From the IMG/VR virus record IMGVR_UViG_2778261278_000009: a stretch of 36,154 nucleotides of DNA; one strand, 5' to 3'. Position numbers: made by a program. This document shows positions 1-6,000 of this stretch, piece by piece (position 1 is the first letter of the stretch; each line of letters begins with the position of its first letter). Origin of the DNA: a virus (lineage: Duplodnaviria; Heunggongvirae; Uroviricota; Caudoviricetes).

Positions 1-3000
1 TTACGCCTTCTTTATATCCTCCATAATTCCAGAGTGGGACATATTTGGGACATTATCACCAAAAATGTCGTCTATTTTCCTCGCATGCTCTGTCAAATGA
101 TTAGGCGCAAGGTGAGCATACCTACGAACCATTTCTATGGACTCCCATCCGCCCATTTCCTGAAGCACTGATAATGGGACGCCTGACTGAATCAGCCAGC
201 TTGCCCAGGTGTGTCTGAGGTCATGGAAACGGAAATCTTCAATTCCTGCACGACGACAAGCTGATAGCCATGATGTCTTGCTGTCGATGCGCATCTTCCT
301 GACCGCAGGCGTTGATGTTCCATCTGCTCGCTTAGCCGCCTTGGTATGTACAAACACCCATTTGTGATGCTTGCCTATTTGATCACGCAACACTTTACAG
401 GCGGTATCGTTCAGCGCCACACCAATGGCGCGGTTTGATTTGCTCTCTTCTGGATTCACCCAGGCAACTCGTCGCTGCATGTCGATTTGTTGCCATTCCA
501 GATTTATGATGTTCGACTTTCTCAGACCAGTTGCCAGCGCAAACTTGACGACAGATTTCAGTGGTTCGGGGCACTCCTCAATAAGGCGTTTTGCTTCCTC
601 CTTTTCCAGCCATCTGACTCGCTTGTTTCTGACCGCTGGTATCTTGATGACAGGCGCTTTTTCCAGCCACTTCCAGTCGCGTTCTGCAGCACGGAGAATG
701 GCCTTTATCATGGCAAGATGCTTTGCCTTTGTCTGAGTTGATACTGGCTTTGGTTCATAAACAGGCAGTTCTTTACCTTTCCTGATGGCGGCCTGAACTT
801 TCTGTTTCCATATTTCTTTCGTCTTTCTGTTATGCATTCTGCTTACAGCAGAGTAAATCTTTGCCTCCGAGATATCTTTAAGCCTTATACCCTCAAAATG
901 TTCAAGCCAGAACTCAATCCGGCTTTTATCTGAATCGAGAGATTTTTTATCAGCTTTTTCCTCAAGCCATCTTAGGCAGGCCTCTTCAAAAGTGACATCA
1001 GGTAAATCCCCTAGCTTTTCTACTCGCCAGAGTTCTGCTTTTCGCTTGTCGTGCAACTCCTGAGCTTGCCGCTTGTCCTTTGTGCCAAGAGATTCCTTAA
1101 TTCGTTTCCCGCCCGGGAGCGAATACGAGGCATACCATATTTCATTTCTGCGGAAGAGTGACATTTTCTTTCCTCTGTTATGCCATCACCCGCGCTCACC
1201 TTGATAGTATGCAGCGGAGACTGAAGCGCCGCAATGCAGGCTTGTCGCGTTGTGAGGTAAGGAGATTTTGGTTTAGTGGGGTCTTTGCGTGTTGCCTGTA
1301 GGCGGCCTGTTCGTATCCAGTTGGTAGCGGTAGGTCTGGATATCTTGAGAAACTGACAGGCCTCATCGAGTGTGAGGCTGTATGATTCCATGGTTACCTC
1401 TGCTTTTTGAACGCATGTCACGTAACTTCTTAATGTGTTCTGCCGTTTCGATCTCTTCTGCTATCCGATCTGCATCAGCTTTATTCACAGGTTCAAAGTC
1501 ATGATTAAAGCGGAACATGCTGGCGATACATGTTCTGCCTTTTCGGATGTAGTGAACTTTGTTGTGGGTAGAACGCAGGATTTTGCAGGGAGTGCCGTGG
1601 TGGTCGACGTACCAGGTGTTAGGAAAAATGATTCTGAACATTTTTACACCTCAATTGGACGATGTTGAAATTTGCTGCTTTGAGGCCATCACAGTCCCCA
1701 TTGTTTGTTCTTAAGTTCGATCTCCTCCTGGCAACTTGCACAAGTCCGACAACCCTGAACGGCCAGGCGTCTTCGTTCATCTATCGGATCGCCACACTCA
1801 CAACAATGAGTGGCAGATATAGCCTGGTGGTTCAGACGACGCATTTTTATTGCTGTATTGCGCTGTAATTCTTCGATTTCTGATGCTGAATCAATGATGT
1901 CTGCCATCTTCCATTAATCTCTGAATTGTTGGTTAATACGCTTGAGGGTGAATGCGAATAATAAAAAAGGAGCCTGTAGCTCCCTGATGATTTTGCTTTT
2001 CATGTTCATCGCTCCTTAAAGATGCCGTTTAACATGCCGATCGCCAGGCTTAAATGAGTCGGTGTGAATCCCTCAGCGTTACCGTTTCGCGGTGCTTCTT
2101 CAGTACGCTACGGCAAATGTTATTGATGCTCCTGTCTGGTGACAGCCATCGGGCTTGTATTATGTATAAGTTCTGATAAAAGCCTCCGATATATTAAATT
2201 TAAATAACGAAATTCATCTTCTTGATAAGTTGTGATAGCATCATTAAAAGTTTCAGTTCGTTGAGCAGGGATTACATGGTAAATCAGCAACAGCAACAGA
2301 TTAACGAAAATCTAAAAATTGAGGCAATCCGTTGGTATCAGAAGCTGCAGGAGATTACTTATCTTGAAGCAGGACAACACATGCGGGCTTTAAATCAGCT
2401 CATGTGGCAAATCCCTAGTTTCGTAATTGCTGTCAATGGTGGGTTGTGGTATGCAACAACACTGGCAAATGAAAGTTCCCTATGGATTATCTTTGCAGTG
2501 TTAGCATTGTTTGATTTCACAACAATGATTACACTTTATCGCTTAAGGTCTTTAATTGGTTCGAAAATAGCACTACAAAAAAACATTGAAGATCCTTCAA
2601 AAAACTATATTTTAAATGAAATTACTAGAGACGCTGGATTTAAATTGCCCTCTAGCTATGATAATAAGGAAACTGGTTACATAGTAGTGTCGTGCTGGGC
2701 AGTAATGCTTATTGTTTGCTTCTTTGTTAATATTGCTGGGGTATATCATCCAAACTTGTTTTCAAAAGACATTTCACATAATACATACAAAGCAACAATT
2801 AAAAATATTGAGTCAGGATTATTTATCGAAGCAAAATCAGGATTATCAAAGTGACTTCGTGGAAGTTTTATGACAATAATGCTGATCGCTTATTTGCCGA
2901 TTATATATCACTTGATTTTTACTCTATCTTTCAGGATGTTGAAGAGTTTATTTTACAATCTAAGGGTGTCTCTTTGGATGTCGGTTCAGGTTCCGGCCGT

Positions 3001-6000
3001 GATGCTGCTGCGTTAGATGAATTAGGTTATAAAGTAATAGCTGTTGAACCAAGTGAAAAGATGCGAAATTTGGCATCTTCATATTATAAATCTAACCATA
3101 TTATATGGTTAGATGATTCATTGCCTTTTCTTCATAGTGTTAAAGCAATGAATCTAAAGTTCGACCTTATTTTAGTCAGTGCTGTATGGATGCATCTTTC
3201 AAAAAAAGAGCAAAAAATCTCACTAGAGACGCTAACTGATCTTTTAACATTGAATGGGAGAATGATAATTACATTGCGCTTAGGACCTCCCGAACCAGAT
3301 AGAAACATTAACGTTGTTAATACTGAGGAACTTCTTGAGTTAGCGTCTCAGTTAGGTCTGAAAACATTGCGAGTTACGTCAATAAATAAAGATAGTTTTC
3401 AACGTAACCAGATAACTTGGCAGAAAGTTGTATTATCAAAAAATAATGAGTAAATAACTTAGTATTATTCGCACAGACCGTAGCGTGAAGAGCAAACCTC
3501 TATATCGAGACTTGCTTTTACAAGATCGTAGACCTTGCCACCGCGCCCTGTTTTTGCCCACTCTACGACTTCATAAACACCCGGAGAATTAAGATCTCCA
3601 CGAGGACCATAAAATCCTGACCAGTCGATGTGTTGCACATCAGGTTTTAGCCCAAAAAGTTGAATATTTCGACCAAGTGGCAGATTGAACTGTTTCATCC
3701 AGCGTTGGCTTATCTCTCCTACGCTCATCCAGTGTACCCATCTACTAGCAAGGCGTACCTTCAACTCCCATTGTTTGTGCTTTTTGATGTGCTCTGGCCA
3801 GCGCGCAGCCGTCTCTGCAATTTCCTCTTTGTTGCATAGCACGCAATTCATGCAGCCAACACGAGACGCACCTTGCATATAAAGTGGATTTGGCTTAATT
3901 CCGAAATATTTGTGAACTGCGAATACGTCCTCAGCCGTCCATTTGTGGAGCGGCAGGAAGTTGTAGAGAAAATCGGCGTCGCGCATATCGCGGGAAAACC
4001 TCTCATATCCAGCGCGCTTAGAGGACTCATCCGCGCGAACACCAGACCATTGTACGATAACATCGCCAGCATCAAGGAGCGGCTTTATGGCTGCGTCGAA
4101 AGCTATCTGAATTTTCAGTTCGTCTGTACAGAATCGGTCGCGCAGCATAGGGAACTTGCCATGCAGAAGGGAGCAATCCAAAAAGCTATTACCGGATGGG
4201 TGCATAACGGAAAGCGCAGCATCAAGAGCAGTTTCGAACTCAATTCCCCAGCGTTCTGCTGTGCGCTTCCAGGCTTGCCCGAATTTGGTGTCAGAACGTG
4301 CGAGGGAAGGCATGACTATGCCACGGTATGCTCCCATGCGGATCATCTGTCGTTTAGACCAGTTTTTTTGCAGATAAATTCGTCGTTTGGCAAAATCTTC
4401 TTCAGTGTAAATCCGCTTCACAACCTGCACAGGGCTACAACCGATCTGCTCATGAATGCTCCTGGCGAATTCGACAGTTAGATTATGCTCATTATCCGTG
4501 TCTGCCATAACAGCATGTACCTGTTTGCCGAATAATGTGTGCGCCACTGCGAGTGTGGCAGTGCTGTCTTTTCCTGCTGAATAATTCACGATTATCTTAT
4601 GATCATTAGGGATGCGAAATTCATTTATATATCTGTTGTAGGACTCTTCTATTTCGCGAATTTTCTTGCTGATGTCTGTTGGGACAATAATTATTGCTGC
4701 CTCGTTCATACCGCCTCCCGTTTATTATTTATCTCCTCAGCCAGCCGCTGGGCTTTCAGCGGATTTCGGATAACAGAAAGCCCGGGAAATACCCAGCCTC
4801 GCTTTGTAACGGAGTAGACGAAAGTGATCGCGCCTACCCGGATATTATCGTGAGGATGCGTCATCGCCATTGCTCCCCAAATACAAAACCAATTTCAGCC
4901 AGTGCCTCGTCCATTTTTTCGATGAACTCCGGCACCATCTCGTCAAAACTCGCCATATACTTTTCATTCCGCTCAATCACGACATAATGCAGGCCTTCAC
5001 GCTTCATGCGCGGGTCATAGTTGGCAAAGTACCAGGCATCTTTTCGCGTCACCCACATGCTGTACTGCACCTGGGCCATGTAAGCCGATTTTATTGCCTC
5101 GAAACCACCGAGCCGGAATTTCATGAAATCCCGGGAGGTAAACGGGCATTTCAGTTCAAGGCCGTTGCCGTCACTGCATAAACCATCGGGAGAGCAGGCG
5201 GTGCGCATACTTTCGTCGCGATAGATGATCGGGGATTCAGTAATATTCACGCCGGAAGTGAATTCAAACAGGGTTCTGGCGTCGTTCTCGTACTGTTTTC
5301 CCCAGGCCAGCGCCTTAGCATTAACTTCCGGAGCCACACCGGTGCAAACCTCAGCCAGCAGGGTGTGGAAGTAGGACATTTTCATGTCAGGCCACTTCTT
5401 TCCTGAGCGGGGCTTTGCTATCACGTTGTGAACTTCTGAAGCGGTGATGACGCCGAGCCGTAATTTGTGCCATGCATCATCCCCCTGTTCGACAGCTCTC
5501 ACGTCGATCCCGGTACGCTGCAGGATAATGTCCGGTATCATGCTGCCACCTTCTGCTCAGTGGCTTTCTGTTTCAGGAATCCAAGAGCTTTCACTGCTTC
5601 GGCCTGTGTCAGTTCTGACGATGCGCGAATGTCGCGGCGAAATATCTGGGAACAGAGCGGCAATAAGTCGTCATCCCATGTTTTATCCAGGGCGATCAGC
5701 AGAGTGTTAATCTCCTGCATGGTTTCATCGTTAACCGGAGTGATGTCGCGTTCTGGCTGACGTTCTGCAGTGTATGCAGTATTTTCGACAATGCGCTCGG
5801 CTTCATCCTTGTCATAGATACCAGCAAATCCGAAGGCCAGACGGGCACACTGAATCATGGCTTTATGCCGTAACATACGTTTGGGATGCGACTGCCACGG
5901 CCCCGTGATTTCTCTGCCTTCGCGGGTTTTGAATGGTTCGCGGCGGCATTCATCCATCCATTCGGTAACGCAGATCGGATGATTACGGTCCTTGCGGTAA

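What the first reader, a model, noticed from the sequence alone, without database searches (positions are those of the whole stretch)
2222..3453. AT-rich two-gene moron: 3-TM membrane protein translationally coupled to a small SAM-methyltransferase, antiparallel to the early-left operon
This segment is visibly lower in GC than the flanking lambda-like genes and is transcribed opposite to the surrounding int-xis and Red genes, converging on the PAPS-reductase-like gene with only an 11-bp gap. The methyltransferase has a clear motif I (LDVGSGSGRD) but must start at a GTG overlapping the upstream stop (GTGA), implying coupled expression with the membrane protein. I do not recognise this pairing as a described module; it sits in a known accessory hotspot between int/xis and the recombination genes, so a role in lysogenic conversion, exclusion or modification is possible but unproven.
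Basis: partly seen in the sequence, partly recalled or inferred. Interest (0 to 1): 0.6.

Follow-up and report, generated by a model that had tools for sequence, protein, structure and literature searches.

The report
Membrane methyltransferase partnered with DndC-like enzyme
An AT-rich two-gene unit in a lambda-like E. coli prophage encodes a membrane anchor and a small methyltransferase; in other phages and bacteria this unit almost always lies beside enzymes that put sulfur into the DNA backbone, so it looks like an undescribed accessory of that DNA-marking and phage-defence machinery.

Summary
Window 2276-2854 (+) encodes a 192-aa protein with three hydrophobic helices. Window 2851-3453 (+) encodes a 200-aa class I SAM methyltransferase that starts at a GTG inside the GTGA stop/start overlap. 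The pair has GC 0.35 against 0.51 for the window and ends 11 bp from the stop of a convergent PAPS-reductase-like gene (3465-4709, -).

In E. coli the variable cargo is the three-gene block 2127-4706. In 17 of 18 viral contigs the pair converges on a PAPS-reductase-family gene, including two types only about 32% identical.

Outside phages, homologous pairs lie next to dndBCDE or sspBCD DNA-phosphorothioation genes; these are fused into one protein in alpha-proteobacteria and Nostoc. Of 40 informative lineages, 32 are within 8 kb of such genes. The same membrane domain is also fused to a DEDDh exonuclease inside an Ssp locus.

No Pfam, NCBIfam, PHROG or PADLOC family covers the membrane protein. 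The PADLOC mad2 hit to the methyltransferase is generic.

Best reading: a membrane-tethered, probably active methyltransferase that works with DndC/SspD-type sulfurtransferases. In this phage it forms a three-gene cassette related to phosphorothioation or to countering it. The substrate is unknown.

The parts
2127..4706 (.). Whole variable cassette: leader, membrane-protein gene, methyltransferase gene and PAPS-reductase-like gene, inserted between conserved lambdoid genes.
   Evidence: Homology to other lambdoid phages and prophages stops at about 2126 on the left and resumes at about 4707 on the right. The full block is present in 29 of 5,426 E. coli genomes, while the flanks are present in about 3,600.
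2127..2275 (+). AT-rich leader and presumed promoter region of the pair.
   Evidence: GC 0.356. It lies inside the cassette-specific DNA. The consensus scan found no strong sigma-70 site, so the promoter is not established.
2276..2854 (+). Gene for a 192-aa membrane protein. It has an N-terminal helix carrying the invariant motif EAGQHxRxLNQLMWQxP...GGLWY, followed by two strongly hydrophobic helices.
   Evidence: 28 invariant columns; AF2 pLDDT 72.5; helices 2-63, 66-105, 136-157; hydropathy. No family in Pfam, NCBIfam, PHROGs or PADLOC. There are 226 cluster representatives among 1.84 billion proteins.
2851..2854 (+). GTGA start/stop overlap (translational coupling).
   Evidence: Sequence. 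The same 4-nt overlap occurs in L002, L025 and L027. The two genes are fused into one ORF in L014-L022.
2851..3453 (+). Gene for a 200-aa class I SAM-dependent methyltransferase.
   Evidence: Methyltransf_11/25/23/12 above Pfam cut-offs. AF2 pLDDT 95 with a Rossmann fold. Foldseek probability 1.0 to many class I methyltransferases. Invariant DxGxGxGRD, E66, SAVWMH.
3454..3464 (.). 11-bp gap between the two convergent stop codons.
   Evidence: No terminator-like hairpin was found here.
3465..4709 (-). Gene for a 414-aa PAPS-reductase-family PP-loop protein (DndC/SspD-like), the constant partner of the pair in phages.
   Evidence: PF01507 at 6.8e-21. PADLOC SspD 6e-19, BrxP 4e-16, DndC 6e-9. phrog_424 at 7e-66. 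The PP-loop SAGKDS and three Cys (C194, C286, C289) are invariant with DndC and SspD.

Best explanation
The two genes encode one functional unit: a membrane-embedded anchor protein and a catalytically competent small class I SAM methyltransferase that is tethered to it. The two are separate but translationally coupled here, and fused into one polypeptide in other lineages.

This unit is an accessory partner of PAPS-reductase-family PP-loop/Fe-S sulfurtransferases. These include DndC in Dnd systems, SspD in Ssp systems, and the 'orphan' PAPS reductases of temperate phages.

In this prophage the real mobile element is a three-gene cassette (2127-4706): membrane protein, methyltransferase and a convergent DndC/SspD-like gene. 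It most likely acts in the conflict over DNA phosphorothioation. That could mean modifying DNA, or modulating or evading phosphorothioate-dependent restriction.

Shown: gene structure, coupling, fusion, conservation and synteny.

Inferred: that the methyltransferase is active; that it works with the sulfurtransferase; and, as my preferred but weakly supported chemistry, that it methylates a sulfur-containing product or intermediate of that enzyme (S-methylation of a thiol, persulfide or phosphorothioate) close to the membrane.
For: 1. One unit.
- The methyltransferase gene directly follows the membrane gene in every locus examined, across gamma-, beta- and alpha-proteobacteria and Nostoc.
- There are 9 single-ORF fusions of 338-383 aa.
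- 12 of 25 long members of the membrane-domain family carry methyltransferase domains.
- The GTGA overlap recurs in homologues.

2. The enzyme looks active. Motif I, the acidic residue E66, D89 and SAVWMH are invariant or nearly so, and the fold model is confident.

3. Specific linkage to PAPS-family genes.
- Of 46 lineages (clustered at 90% nt identity), 13 lie next to a phage PAPS reductase (18-302 bp away), 9 next to dndC, 5 next to other dnd genes, 5 next to sspBCD, 8 next to none, and 6 are on contigs too short to tell. That is 32 of 40 informative lineages.
- Dnd identities come from Pfam context and tblastn. Ssp identities: SspB 4e-110, SspC E = 0, SspD 1e-118.
- The pair is co-operonic with dnd or ssp genes in L013, L016, L019 and L116.

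4. Independent re-association. L099 and L053 have pairs that are 82% and 73% identical, but their PAPS partners are only 32% identical (429-aa against 344-aa type). L029 and L053 have PAPS proteins 93% identical, but their pairs are only 45% and 51% identical.

5. The trio moves as a block. In the window and in E. soli it lies in the int-exo region; in E. coli EC5 and K. pneumoniae it lies in the nin region. The arrangement is always convergent.

6. In E. coli all 29 genomes with a >=99% PAPS allele carry the pair, and the inspected genome (EC5) with the 74% allele also has it.

7. The same membrane domain carries a DEDDh exonuclease head between SspGH and SspA in L128. The domain itself therefore tracks phosphorothioation systems.

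8. The phage PAPS protein keeps the PP-loop and the three cysteines shared with DndC and SspD.

9. A phage PAPS domain has been shown experimentally to contribute to an anti-Dnd function (bioRxiv 10.1101/2021.05.05.442762; noted again in PMC13551039).

10. Weak chemical hints. There are TehB/TPMT-type (chalcogen methyltransferase) sub-threshold hits across the family. TehB and a halide/thiol methyltransferase are among the structural neighbours.
Against: - No experiment bears on this cassette.
- 8 of 40 informative lineages have no phosphorothioation gene within 8 kb: the nin-region type beside an HTH_73 gene (L004, L023, L027, L050), the HipA/helicase type (L010-12) and L018.
- Most phage PAPS reductases lack the pair: 30 of 38 in IMG/VR. 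The pair is therefore not needed for their basic function.
- In phages the pair is always convergent with the PAPS gene and antisense to the pL operon. This could mean expression at a different time rather than co-operation.
- The methyltransferase's nearest structures are generic (NTMT1/2, phosphoethanolamine methyltransferase, Trm9; identity at most 21%). It has no DNA-methyltransferase motif and no DNA-binding domain, so the substrate is open.
- The exonuclease-headed variant does not fit a small-molecule S-methylation role.
- Loci were found by homology, so lineages are not fully independent. Defence-island clustering can also create adjacency without shared function.
Confidence: 0.55

Rival explanations
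1. Independent moron. The pair is a lysogen-expressed conversion or superinfection-exclusion module. Its position next to the PAPS gene and next to Dnd/Ssp loci reflects only shared hotspots and defence islands, not shared function.
For: It has its own orientation and very different GC from the PAPS gene (0.35 against 0.47), which suggests a separate origin. Pairs without any PAPS or phosphorothioation gene nearby exist in four prophage lineages and four other lineages. Several loci are plainly defence islands, with HipA-like, helicase, PD-Lambda-5_A-like and NACHT genes.
Against: The pair is immediately adjacent to a PAPS-family gene in three unrelated architectures: Dnd, Ssp and phage orphans. 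It is co-operonic in several loci. It has re-associated with PAPS types that are only 32% identical. The trio has moved as a block between two prophage regions.
Confidence: 0.2
2. Membrane effector with a sensor, of the abortive-infection or toxin-antitoxin type. The conserved membrane domain is a pore- or lesion-forming effector. The attached head (methyltransferase-fold or exonuclease) senses or triggers it, acting as a back-up effector for phosphorothioate-based immunity.
For: The membrane domain has a strikingly invariant in-membrane polar motif (N, Q, W, Q, P, GG, W, Y). The heads are swappable: methyltransferase in 12 of 25 long members, plus a DEDDh exonuclease. The loci lie in defence or mobile contexts.
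Against: The methyltransferase keeps all SAM-binding and catalytic-region residues invariant, which argues for catalysis rather than only sensing. No similarity to known pore-formers beyond generic long helices was found. The pair is carried stably in lysogens with no obvious antitoxin logic.
Confidence: 0.15
3. An ordinary small-molecule methyltransferase, for example TehB-like detoxification of tellurite or selenite, or a lipid or quinone methylase, with a membrane helper, hitch-hiking on mobile elements.
For: The Pfam TehB hit is 23 bits against a cut-off of 20.4. Sub-threshold hits to UbiG, TehB and CpaM recur. More distant methyltransferase-only relatives sit in unrelated contexts, for example the Streptomyces locus L031.
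Against: All NCBIfam equivalog scores are far below their cut-offs (for example TehB 24 against 303). This reading does not explain the synteny with DndC, SspD or phage PAPS genes, nor the exonuclease-headed paralogue in an Ssp locus.
Confidence: 0.07

Closest known systems
Dnd (DndABCDE) and Ssp (SspABCD) DNA phosphorothioation systems
   Same: Homologues of the pair lie directly beside, and sometimes in the same operon as, dndB/C/D/E or sspB/C/D. The window's neighbour gene belongs to the same PAPS-reductase PP-loop family as DndC and SspD and shares the PP-loop and three cysteines.
   Different: The window has no DndD/DndE, SspB/SspC or cysteine desulfurase within the cassette. The PAPS protein is far below the DndC equivalog cut-off (32 against 290 bits). 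The membrane protein and this methyltransferase are not listed components of either system. They are absent from the PADLOC models and from the 2024 comparative reappraisal PMC10853773.
Phage-encoded PAPS-reductase counter-defence against Dnd (Vibrio crassostreae podoviruses; bioRxiv 10.1101/2021.05.05.442762)
   Same: Both are phage-borne orphan PAPS-reductase-domain genes physically coupled to a methyltransferase and sitting in a variable region. That paper shows by recombinant phages that the block confers escape from Dnd.
   Different: There the PAPS domain is fused to a Dam DNA adenine methylase. Here the methyltransferase is a separate, non-DNA-type class I enzyme with a membrane partner, encoded convergently. 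No anti-Dnd activity has been tested for this cassette.
TehB, TPMT and other small class I (Methyltransf_11/25) methyltransferases
   Same: Same fold and SAM-binding motifs. TehB and TPMT families give weak hits across the family.
   Different: Identity to any solved structure is at most 21%. All curated equivalog scores are below their cut-offs. The family has its own invariant residues: Y7, Y18, F23, W86, SAVWMH, R143, R151, D181, R185, W190. It also has an obligatory membrane partner.
MADS defence system, mad2 (PADLOC PDLC04134)
   Same: The methyltransferase matches the mad2 model at 7.4e-15 over model positions 290-446 of 492.
   Different: mad2 is the N6 DNA methylase of an eight-gene operon. 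The MADS models were built from HHpred-versus-PDB alignments, so the mad2 model is a generic Rossmann methyltransferase profile. mad6-8, which are mandatory, are absent here.
Eukaryotic membrane-associated thiol methyltransferases METTL7A/B (TMT1A/B). This is recalled from memory and was not tested here.
   Same: Architectural analogy only: an N-terminal membrane hairpin plus a Methyltransf_11-type domain acting on thiols or sulfide.
   Different: No sequence or structure comparison was run. This is a lead for the S-methylation idea, not evidence.

Membership tests
Class I SAM-dependent methyltransferase (Methyltransf_11/25) | Pfam score above the gathering threshold. | tested here: met
   PF08241 38.9 bits (cut-off 21.2), PF13649 36.5 (27), PF13489 33.2 (27), PF08242 33.6 (30).
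Class I SAM-dependent methyltransferase (Methyltransf_11/25) | Rossmann-like seven-strand fold with the GxGxG motif I and an acidic residue at the end of strand 2. | tested here: met
   AF2 pLDDT 95, pTM 0.92. Foldseek probability 1.0 to many class I methyltransferases. D43, G45, G47, G49 and E66 are invariant in 38 sequences.
TehB tellurite methyltransferase (equivalog) | NCBIfam equivalog score above the cut-off. | tested here: not met
   NF008992 24.1 bits against 303; NF008405 18.9 against 218; TIGR00477 18.4 against 219.5. Only the broad Pfam TehB domain is passed, and only partially (23 against 20.4 bits, profile positions 29-113 of 193).
DNA amino-methyltransferase (N6A/N4C), including MADS mad2 | Catalytic (D/N/S)PP(Y/F/W) motif after strand 4. 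| tested here: not met
   No such motif is present in the 200-aa sequence. The post-strand-4 motif is SAVWMH.
MADS defence system | Presence of the mandatory mad6, mad7 and mad8 genes in the operon. | tested here: not met
   The cassette has three genes only. The criteria for the MADS model come from the preprint's methods. The neighbours are int, xis-like, DksA-like, exo and bet.
Dnd DNA phosphorothioation system | A DndC equivalog. | tested here: not met
   TIGR03183 32.2 bits against a cut-off of 290.4. Family-level features are kept: the PP-loop and three Cys.
Dnd DNA phosphorothioation system | The DndD-DndE gene dyad next to DndC. | tested here: not met
   Neither gene is within the cassette or its flanks. 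Both are present next to homologous pairs in L002, L013, L015, L019, L020 and others.
Ssp phosphorothioation system | SspB, SspC and SspD together. | tested here: not met
   The window has only a partial SspD-like match (6e-19, profile positions 74-211 of 277). Full SspB, SspC and SspD lie next to homologous pairs in L007, L008, L116 and L120-122.
Phage anti-Dnd PAPS block (Piel et al.) | Confers escape from DndFGH restriction. | not testable with these tools
   This requires phage plating on Dnd+ hosts. Only the domain-level resemblance was seen.
Translationally coupled operon | Overlapping stop and start codons with a ribosome-binding site inside the upstream gene. | tested here: met
   GTGA at 2851-2854 with AGGA 8 nt upstream. 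The same overlap occurs in homologues. Coupled translation itself was not measured.
Integral membrane protein with three transmembrane spans | Three segments each hydrophobic enough to span the membrane, and a topology consistent with that number. | tested here: inconclusive
   Two segments are strong (Kyte-Doolittle 19-residue scores 2.12 and 2.59). The first does not reach the 1.6 threshold (best window starting before residue 61 scores 1.45). AF2 predicts three helices. The exonuclease head is N-terminal to the domain and the methyltransferase head C-terminal, which implies an even number of crossings.

The most novel reading that the evidence does not exclude
The membrane-tethered methyltransferase acts on the sulfur installed by DndC/SspD-type enzymes. 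It would S-methylate phosphorothioate linkages, or a thiolated nucleic-acid intermediate. That would either create a new, charge-neutral DNA backbone mark or erase or labilise phosphorothioates. The conserved membrane domain would place swappable nucleic-acid-processing heads (methyltransferase or DEDDh exonuclease) at the cell envelope where foreign DNA enters. In the phage, the three-gene cassette would then be a self-contained tool for rewriting or evading phosphorothioate-based immunity.
Probability: 0.12. Interest if true: 0.9.

Novelty: new variant of a known kind. Interest (0 to 1): 0.62.

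Why it matters
DNA phosphorothioation is the only known natural DNA-backbone modification. Its enzymology (the role of DndC, a proposed SAM requirement, partial and dynamic modification) and its regulation are still unsettled.

A conserved, unannotated membrane-anchored methyltransferase travels with DndC in Dnd loci, with SspD in Ssp loci and with orphan PAPS reductases in temperate phages. It is a concrete, testable candidate for a missing accessory step: S-methylation, turnover, regulation, or membrane localisation of the machinery.

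It would also give a handle on what the widespread phage 'PAPS reductase' genes do. An isolated phage (phi458) and sequenced lysogens such as E. coli SE11 carry the exact cassette, so genetics and LC-MS are feasible straight away.

If the association turns out to be mere island hitch-hiking, the finding reduces to an ordinary uncharacterised moron.

Tried and rejected
1. MADS membership. The PADLOC mad2 hit was followed into the MADS preprint. mad2 is an N6 DNA methylase, and the models were built from HHpred-versus-PDB alignments, so the hit is generic. Rejected.

3. Foldseek of the methyltransferase model. The fold is confident, but the neighbours span protein N-terminal, phosphoethanolamine, tRNA, halide and tellurite methyltransferases at no more than 21% identity. 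No substrate call is possible. PDB sequence searches gave only two structural-genomics methyltransferases and nothing for the membrane protein.

4. Promoter and terminator scan and repeat search of 1850-4900. There were no more sites than in shuffled sequence, no terminator in the 11-bp gap and no meaningful repeats. Rfam gave no RNA family.

5. More distant methyltransferase-only relatives (about 40% identity: Streptomyces, Vibrio, Desulfurispira). They have no membrane partner and no phosphorothioation genes, so the link belongs to the membrane-partnered subfamily.

6. Neighbours of PAPS genes that lack the pair. These are ordinary early phage genes (Dam methylase, P2 gpA-like, DUF551, Ead/Ea22), not an alternative partner module.

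7. Literature searches for a described Dnd-associated membrane protein plus class I methyltransferase found none. DndI is a different protein, DUF262-HNH.

Full report
WHAT IS THERE

The window is a lambda-like E. coli prophage. On the minus strand it carries int (1-1164), an HTH_17 xis-like gene, DUF4222, a DksA/TraR zinc-finger gene (1689-1907), DUF1317, exo, bet and gam. Further along are the repressor, O, P, Q and the late genes.

The first ORF is listed from TTG 2222. All homologues and the deposited annotation of phage phi458 start at the position of ATG 2276, which gives 192 aa.

The second ORF (2851-3453, 200 aa) can only start at GTG 2851. That is the only in-frame start ahead of residues that are invariant in the family (Y7, Y18, F23). 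It overlaps the upstream stop as GTGA, with AGGA 8 nt upstream.

The pair has GC 0.347 and GC3 0.27-0.31, against a window mean of 0.506. It is the second-lowest of 700 equal-sized windows. Its stop codon lies 11 bp from the stop of a convergent 414-aa PAPS_reduct protein at 3465-4709.

THE TWO PROTEINS

The methyltransferase passes four Pfam class I methyltransferase models. It folds confidently (pLDDT 95) into a Rossmann methyltransferase. Motif I, the strand-2 acidic residue and a family-specific SAVWMH motif are invariant across 38 homologues.

It has no DNA amino-methyltransferase motif. Its structural neighbours are protein, small-molecule and tRNA methyltransferases at no more than 21% identity. 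No curated NCBIfam model reaches its cut-off.

The PADLOC hit to MADS mad2 is a generic Rossmann match. mad2 is an N6 DNA methylase, and the MADS models were built from HHpred-versus-PDB alignments.

The membrane protein matches nothing above threshold in Pfam, NCBIfam, PHROGs, PADLOC or the PDB sequence search. Its family is small: 226 cluster representatives among 1.84 billion proteins. The core motif is sharply conserved: E..YLEAGQHxRxLNQLMWQxP....GGLWY, then an RxR after the second helix.

AF2 (pLDDT 72.5) predicts helices at 2-63, 66-105 and 136-157. Only the last two are strongly hydrophobic.

THE PAIR IS ONE UNIT

In all 20 loci first compared, the methyltransferase gene directly follows the membrane gene. 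These loci span gamma-, beta- and alpha-proteobacteria and Nostoc. In nine loci (alpha-proteobacteria and Nostoc) the two are a single ORF of 338-383 aa.

The same holds in 18 of 18 viral contigs. In the metagenome contigs it holds wherever the sequence continues far enough, apart from three distant membrane-domain-only loci (L125, L127, L128).

Four-base start/stop overlaps recur in homologues.

THE NEIGHBOUR IS NOT BACKGROUND

Three lines of evidence show that the convergent PAPS-reductase-like gene belongs with the pair.

First, the E. coli genomes. The flanks (DksA-like gene on the left, DUF1317/exo on the right) occur in about 3,600 of 5,426 complete genomes. The stretch 2127-4706 occurs in only 29, and always whole.

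A PAPS allele with 74% nucleotide identity occurs in about 14 more genomes. In the one inspected (strain EC5) it is again preceded convergently by a membrane-protein gene and a methyltransferase gene, but in the nin region of the prophage. K. pneumoniae prophages show the same trio in the nin region. Only one E. coli genome, strain 126, was seen to have this PAPS family without the pair.

Second, IMG/VR. In 17 of 18 contigs with the pair, it converges on a PAPS-family gene. The reverse does not hold: only 8 of 38 contigs found with the PAPS protein carry the pair. The others have ordinary early phage genes as neighbours.

Third, shuffling with linkage retained. L099 and L053 have pairs 82% and 73% identical but PAPS partners only 32% identical (429-aa and 344-aa types). 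L029 and L053 have PAPS proteins 93% identical but pairs only 45% and 51% identical.

THE LINK TO DNA PHOSPHOROTHIOATION

Outside prophages the pair or the fusion lies beside the phosphorothioate-modification genes.

- In Microvirgula it is divergent from dndB-dndC-dndD-dndE.
- In L013 it is directly downstream of dndBCDE.
- In Nostoc L019 it is directly upstream of dndBCDE.
- In L016 it overlaps dndB.
- In Chitinimonas, Methylotenera and several metagenome contigs it is divergent from, or upstream of, sspB-sspC-sspD. The PADLOC scores there are SspB 4e-110, SspC E = 0 and SspD 1e-118.

All 85 loci were collapsed to 46 lineages at 90% nucleotide identity. The counts are:

- 13 next to a phage-type PAPS gene;
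- 9 next to dndC;
- 5 next to other dnd genes, on truncated contigs;
- 5 next to sspBCD;
- 8 next to none of these, with at least 4 kb on both sides;
- 6 on contigs too short to judge.

That gives 32 of 40 informative lineages. DndC, SspD and the phage proteins are the one family common to the three contexts. The window's PAPS protein shares with them the PP-loop (SAGKDS) and three invariant cysteines.

The membrane domain also occurs with a different head. A DEDDh/RNase_T exonuclease is fused to its N-terminus, and in L128 this gene sits between SspG-SspH and the cysteine desulfurase SspA.

The exonuclease head is N-terminal to the domain and the methyltransferase head is C-terminal. Both ends are therefore probably cytoplasmic, which qualifies the '3-TM' description.

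WHAT IS KNOWN

The searchable literature does not describe this module.

- The 2024 comparative reappraisal of Dnd systems lists cytosine methylases, nucleases and small disordered proteins in Dnd neighbourhoods, but no class I methyltransferase with a membrane partner.
- A 2026 gut-microbiome phosphorothioation study mentions an unspecified methyltransferase beside dndBCDE in a cyanobacterium and treats it as possibly independent.
- DndI is a different protein.
- For phages, one study showed that a block containing a PAPS domain fused to a Dam methylase lets Vibrio podoviruses escape Dnd. A 2026 paper notes PAPS reductases in Aca-regulated candidate anti-defence operons.

HOW IT MOST LIKELY WORKS

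Shown: a coupled or fused membrane-anchored methyltransferase with intact catalytic motifs, and strong, repeatedly re-formed synteny with PAPS-family sulfurtransferase genes of three kinds.

Inferred: the methyltransferase works with, or on the product of, that enzyme. In this prophage the three-gene cassette serves DNA phosphorothioation or its evasion.

My preferred chemistry is S-methylation of a thiol, persulfide or phosphorothioate sulfur near the membrane. It rests only on weak TehB/TPMT-type similarity and on chemical plausibility.

The exonuclease-headed paralogue argues instead for a nucleic-acid target or an effector role.

Several points count against the model:

- In phages the pair is convergent with the PAPS gene and antisense to pL.
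- Its GC differs from that of the PAPS gene.
- 8 of 40 lineages lack phosphorothioation genes nearby.
- Most phage PAPS genes lack the pair.
- Homology-based sampling is not phylogenetically independent.

The rivals are an independent moron, a membrane effector with a sensor, and a hitch-hiking small-molecule methyltransferase. They are scored in the rival-explanations section.

VERDICT

The finding should be redrawn as a three-gene cassette (2127-4706) whose membrane-protein and methyltransferase pair is an undescribed accessory of DndC/SspD-type systems.

Novelty: a new variant of a known kind. Interest 0.62.

Noticed in passing
window 2285-2299 (codons 4-8 of the membrane-protein gene): The N-terminal poly-glutamine run (CAG/CAA repeat) varies in length between E. 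coli alleles (192 against 194 aa; matches of 1,238-1,262 bp against the 1,232-bp query). It varies much more between homologues, up to 12 Q. This may be slipped-strand length variation. Its effect is unknown.
   Followed up: no
window 2127-4706 hotspot; comparison hits H60, H63 and H84 in E. coli genomes: In other E. coli lambdoid prophages the same slot between the DksA-like gene and DUF1317/exo carries different cargo: DUF1382, a phage N6-adenine methyltransferase, or a DGQHR-domain (DndB-like) protein. Cargo related to DNA modification or phosphorothioation therefore recurs at this hotspot.
   Followed up: partly
L128:7227-8483 and L125:591-1610 (metagenome contigs): The conserved membrane domain is fused to the C-terminus of a DEDDh/RNase_T exonuclease. 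In L128 the gene lies between SspG-SspH and the SspA cysteine desulfurase. The domain therefore accepts different enzymatic heads within phosphorothioation loci.
   Followed up: partly
L010, L011, L012 (Polaromonas, Hydrogenophaga, Rhizobacter), upstream of the pair: Here the pair follows a HipA_C kinase-like gene and lies near a ResIII/DEAD helicase and a PD-Lambda-5_A-like protein. No phosphorothioation genes lie within 8 kb. This is a defence-island-like context that the main model does not explain.
   Followed up: partly
L004, L023/L024, L027/L028, L050 (Citrobacter and Klebsiella prophages): A sub-lineage of the pair sits in the nin region, divergent from an 80-aa HTH_73 gene, with no PAPS gene nearby. 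In K. aerogenes it lies next to NACHT and DUF6998/PDDEXK genes.
   Followed up: no
L066-L072, L078, L090 (IMG/VR contigs): In phages with a P2 gpA-like replication gene, the same PAPS-reductase family gene lies between a D12-class Dam DNA methyltransferase and that gpA-like gene. This is another physical pairing of a phage PAPS gene with a DNA-modification enzyme.
   Followed up: partly
L013:9243-10583, L015:9156-10508, L019:1485-2651: A P4/CP4-type integrase lies next to the pair. The dnd genes and the methyltransferase module therefore lie at the edge of integrative genomic islands in these genomes.
   Followed up: partly
window 16278-17360 (-): A full-length Gram-negative porin gene (Porin_1, E = 3.6e-152) lies on the opposite strand just downstream of the Q antiterminator gene (15691-16089), in a lower-GC stretch. 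It resembles the known lambdoid phage-borne porin morons (Lc/NmpC type, from memory).
   Followed up: no
window 11001-12000, ORF 11194-11592 (-): A second low-GC patch (0.375) lies just after the P gene. It contains a 132-aa minus-strand ORF with no Pfam match. It may be another moron.
   Followed up: no
window 1967-1985 (-) and 2134-2154 (+): There are two terminator-like hairpins. One is on the minus strand upstream of the DksA-like gene. The other is on the plus strand inside the cassette leader, ahead of the membrane-protein gene. The number of such sites is not clearly above the shuffled expectation.
   Followed up: no
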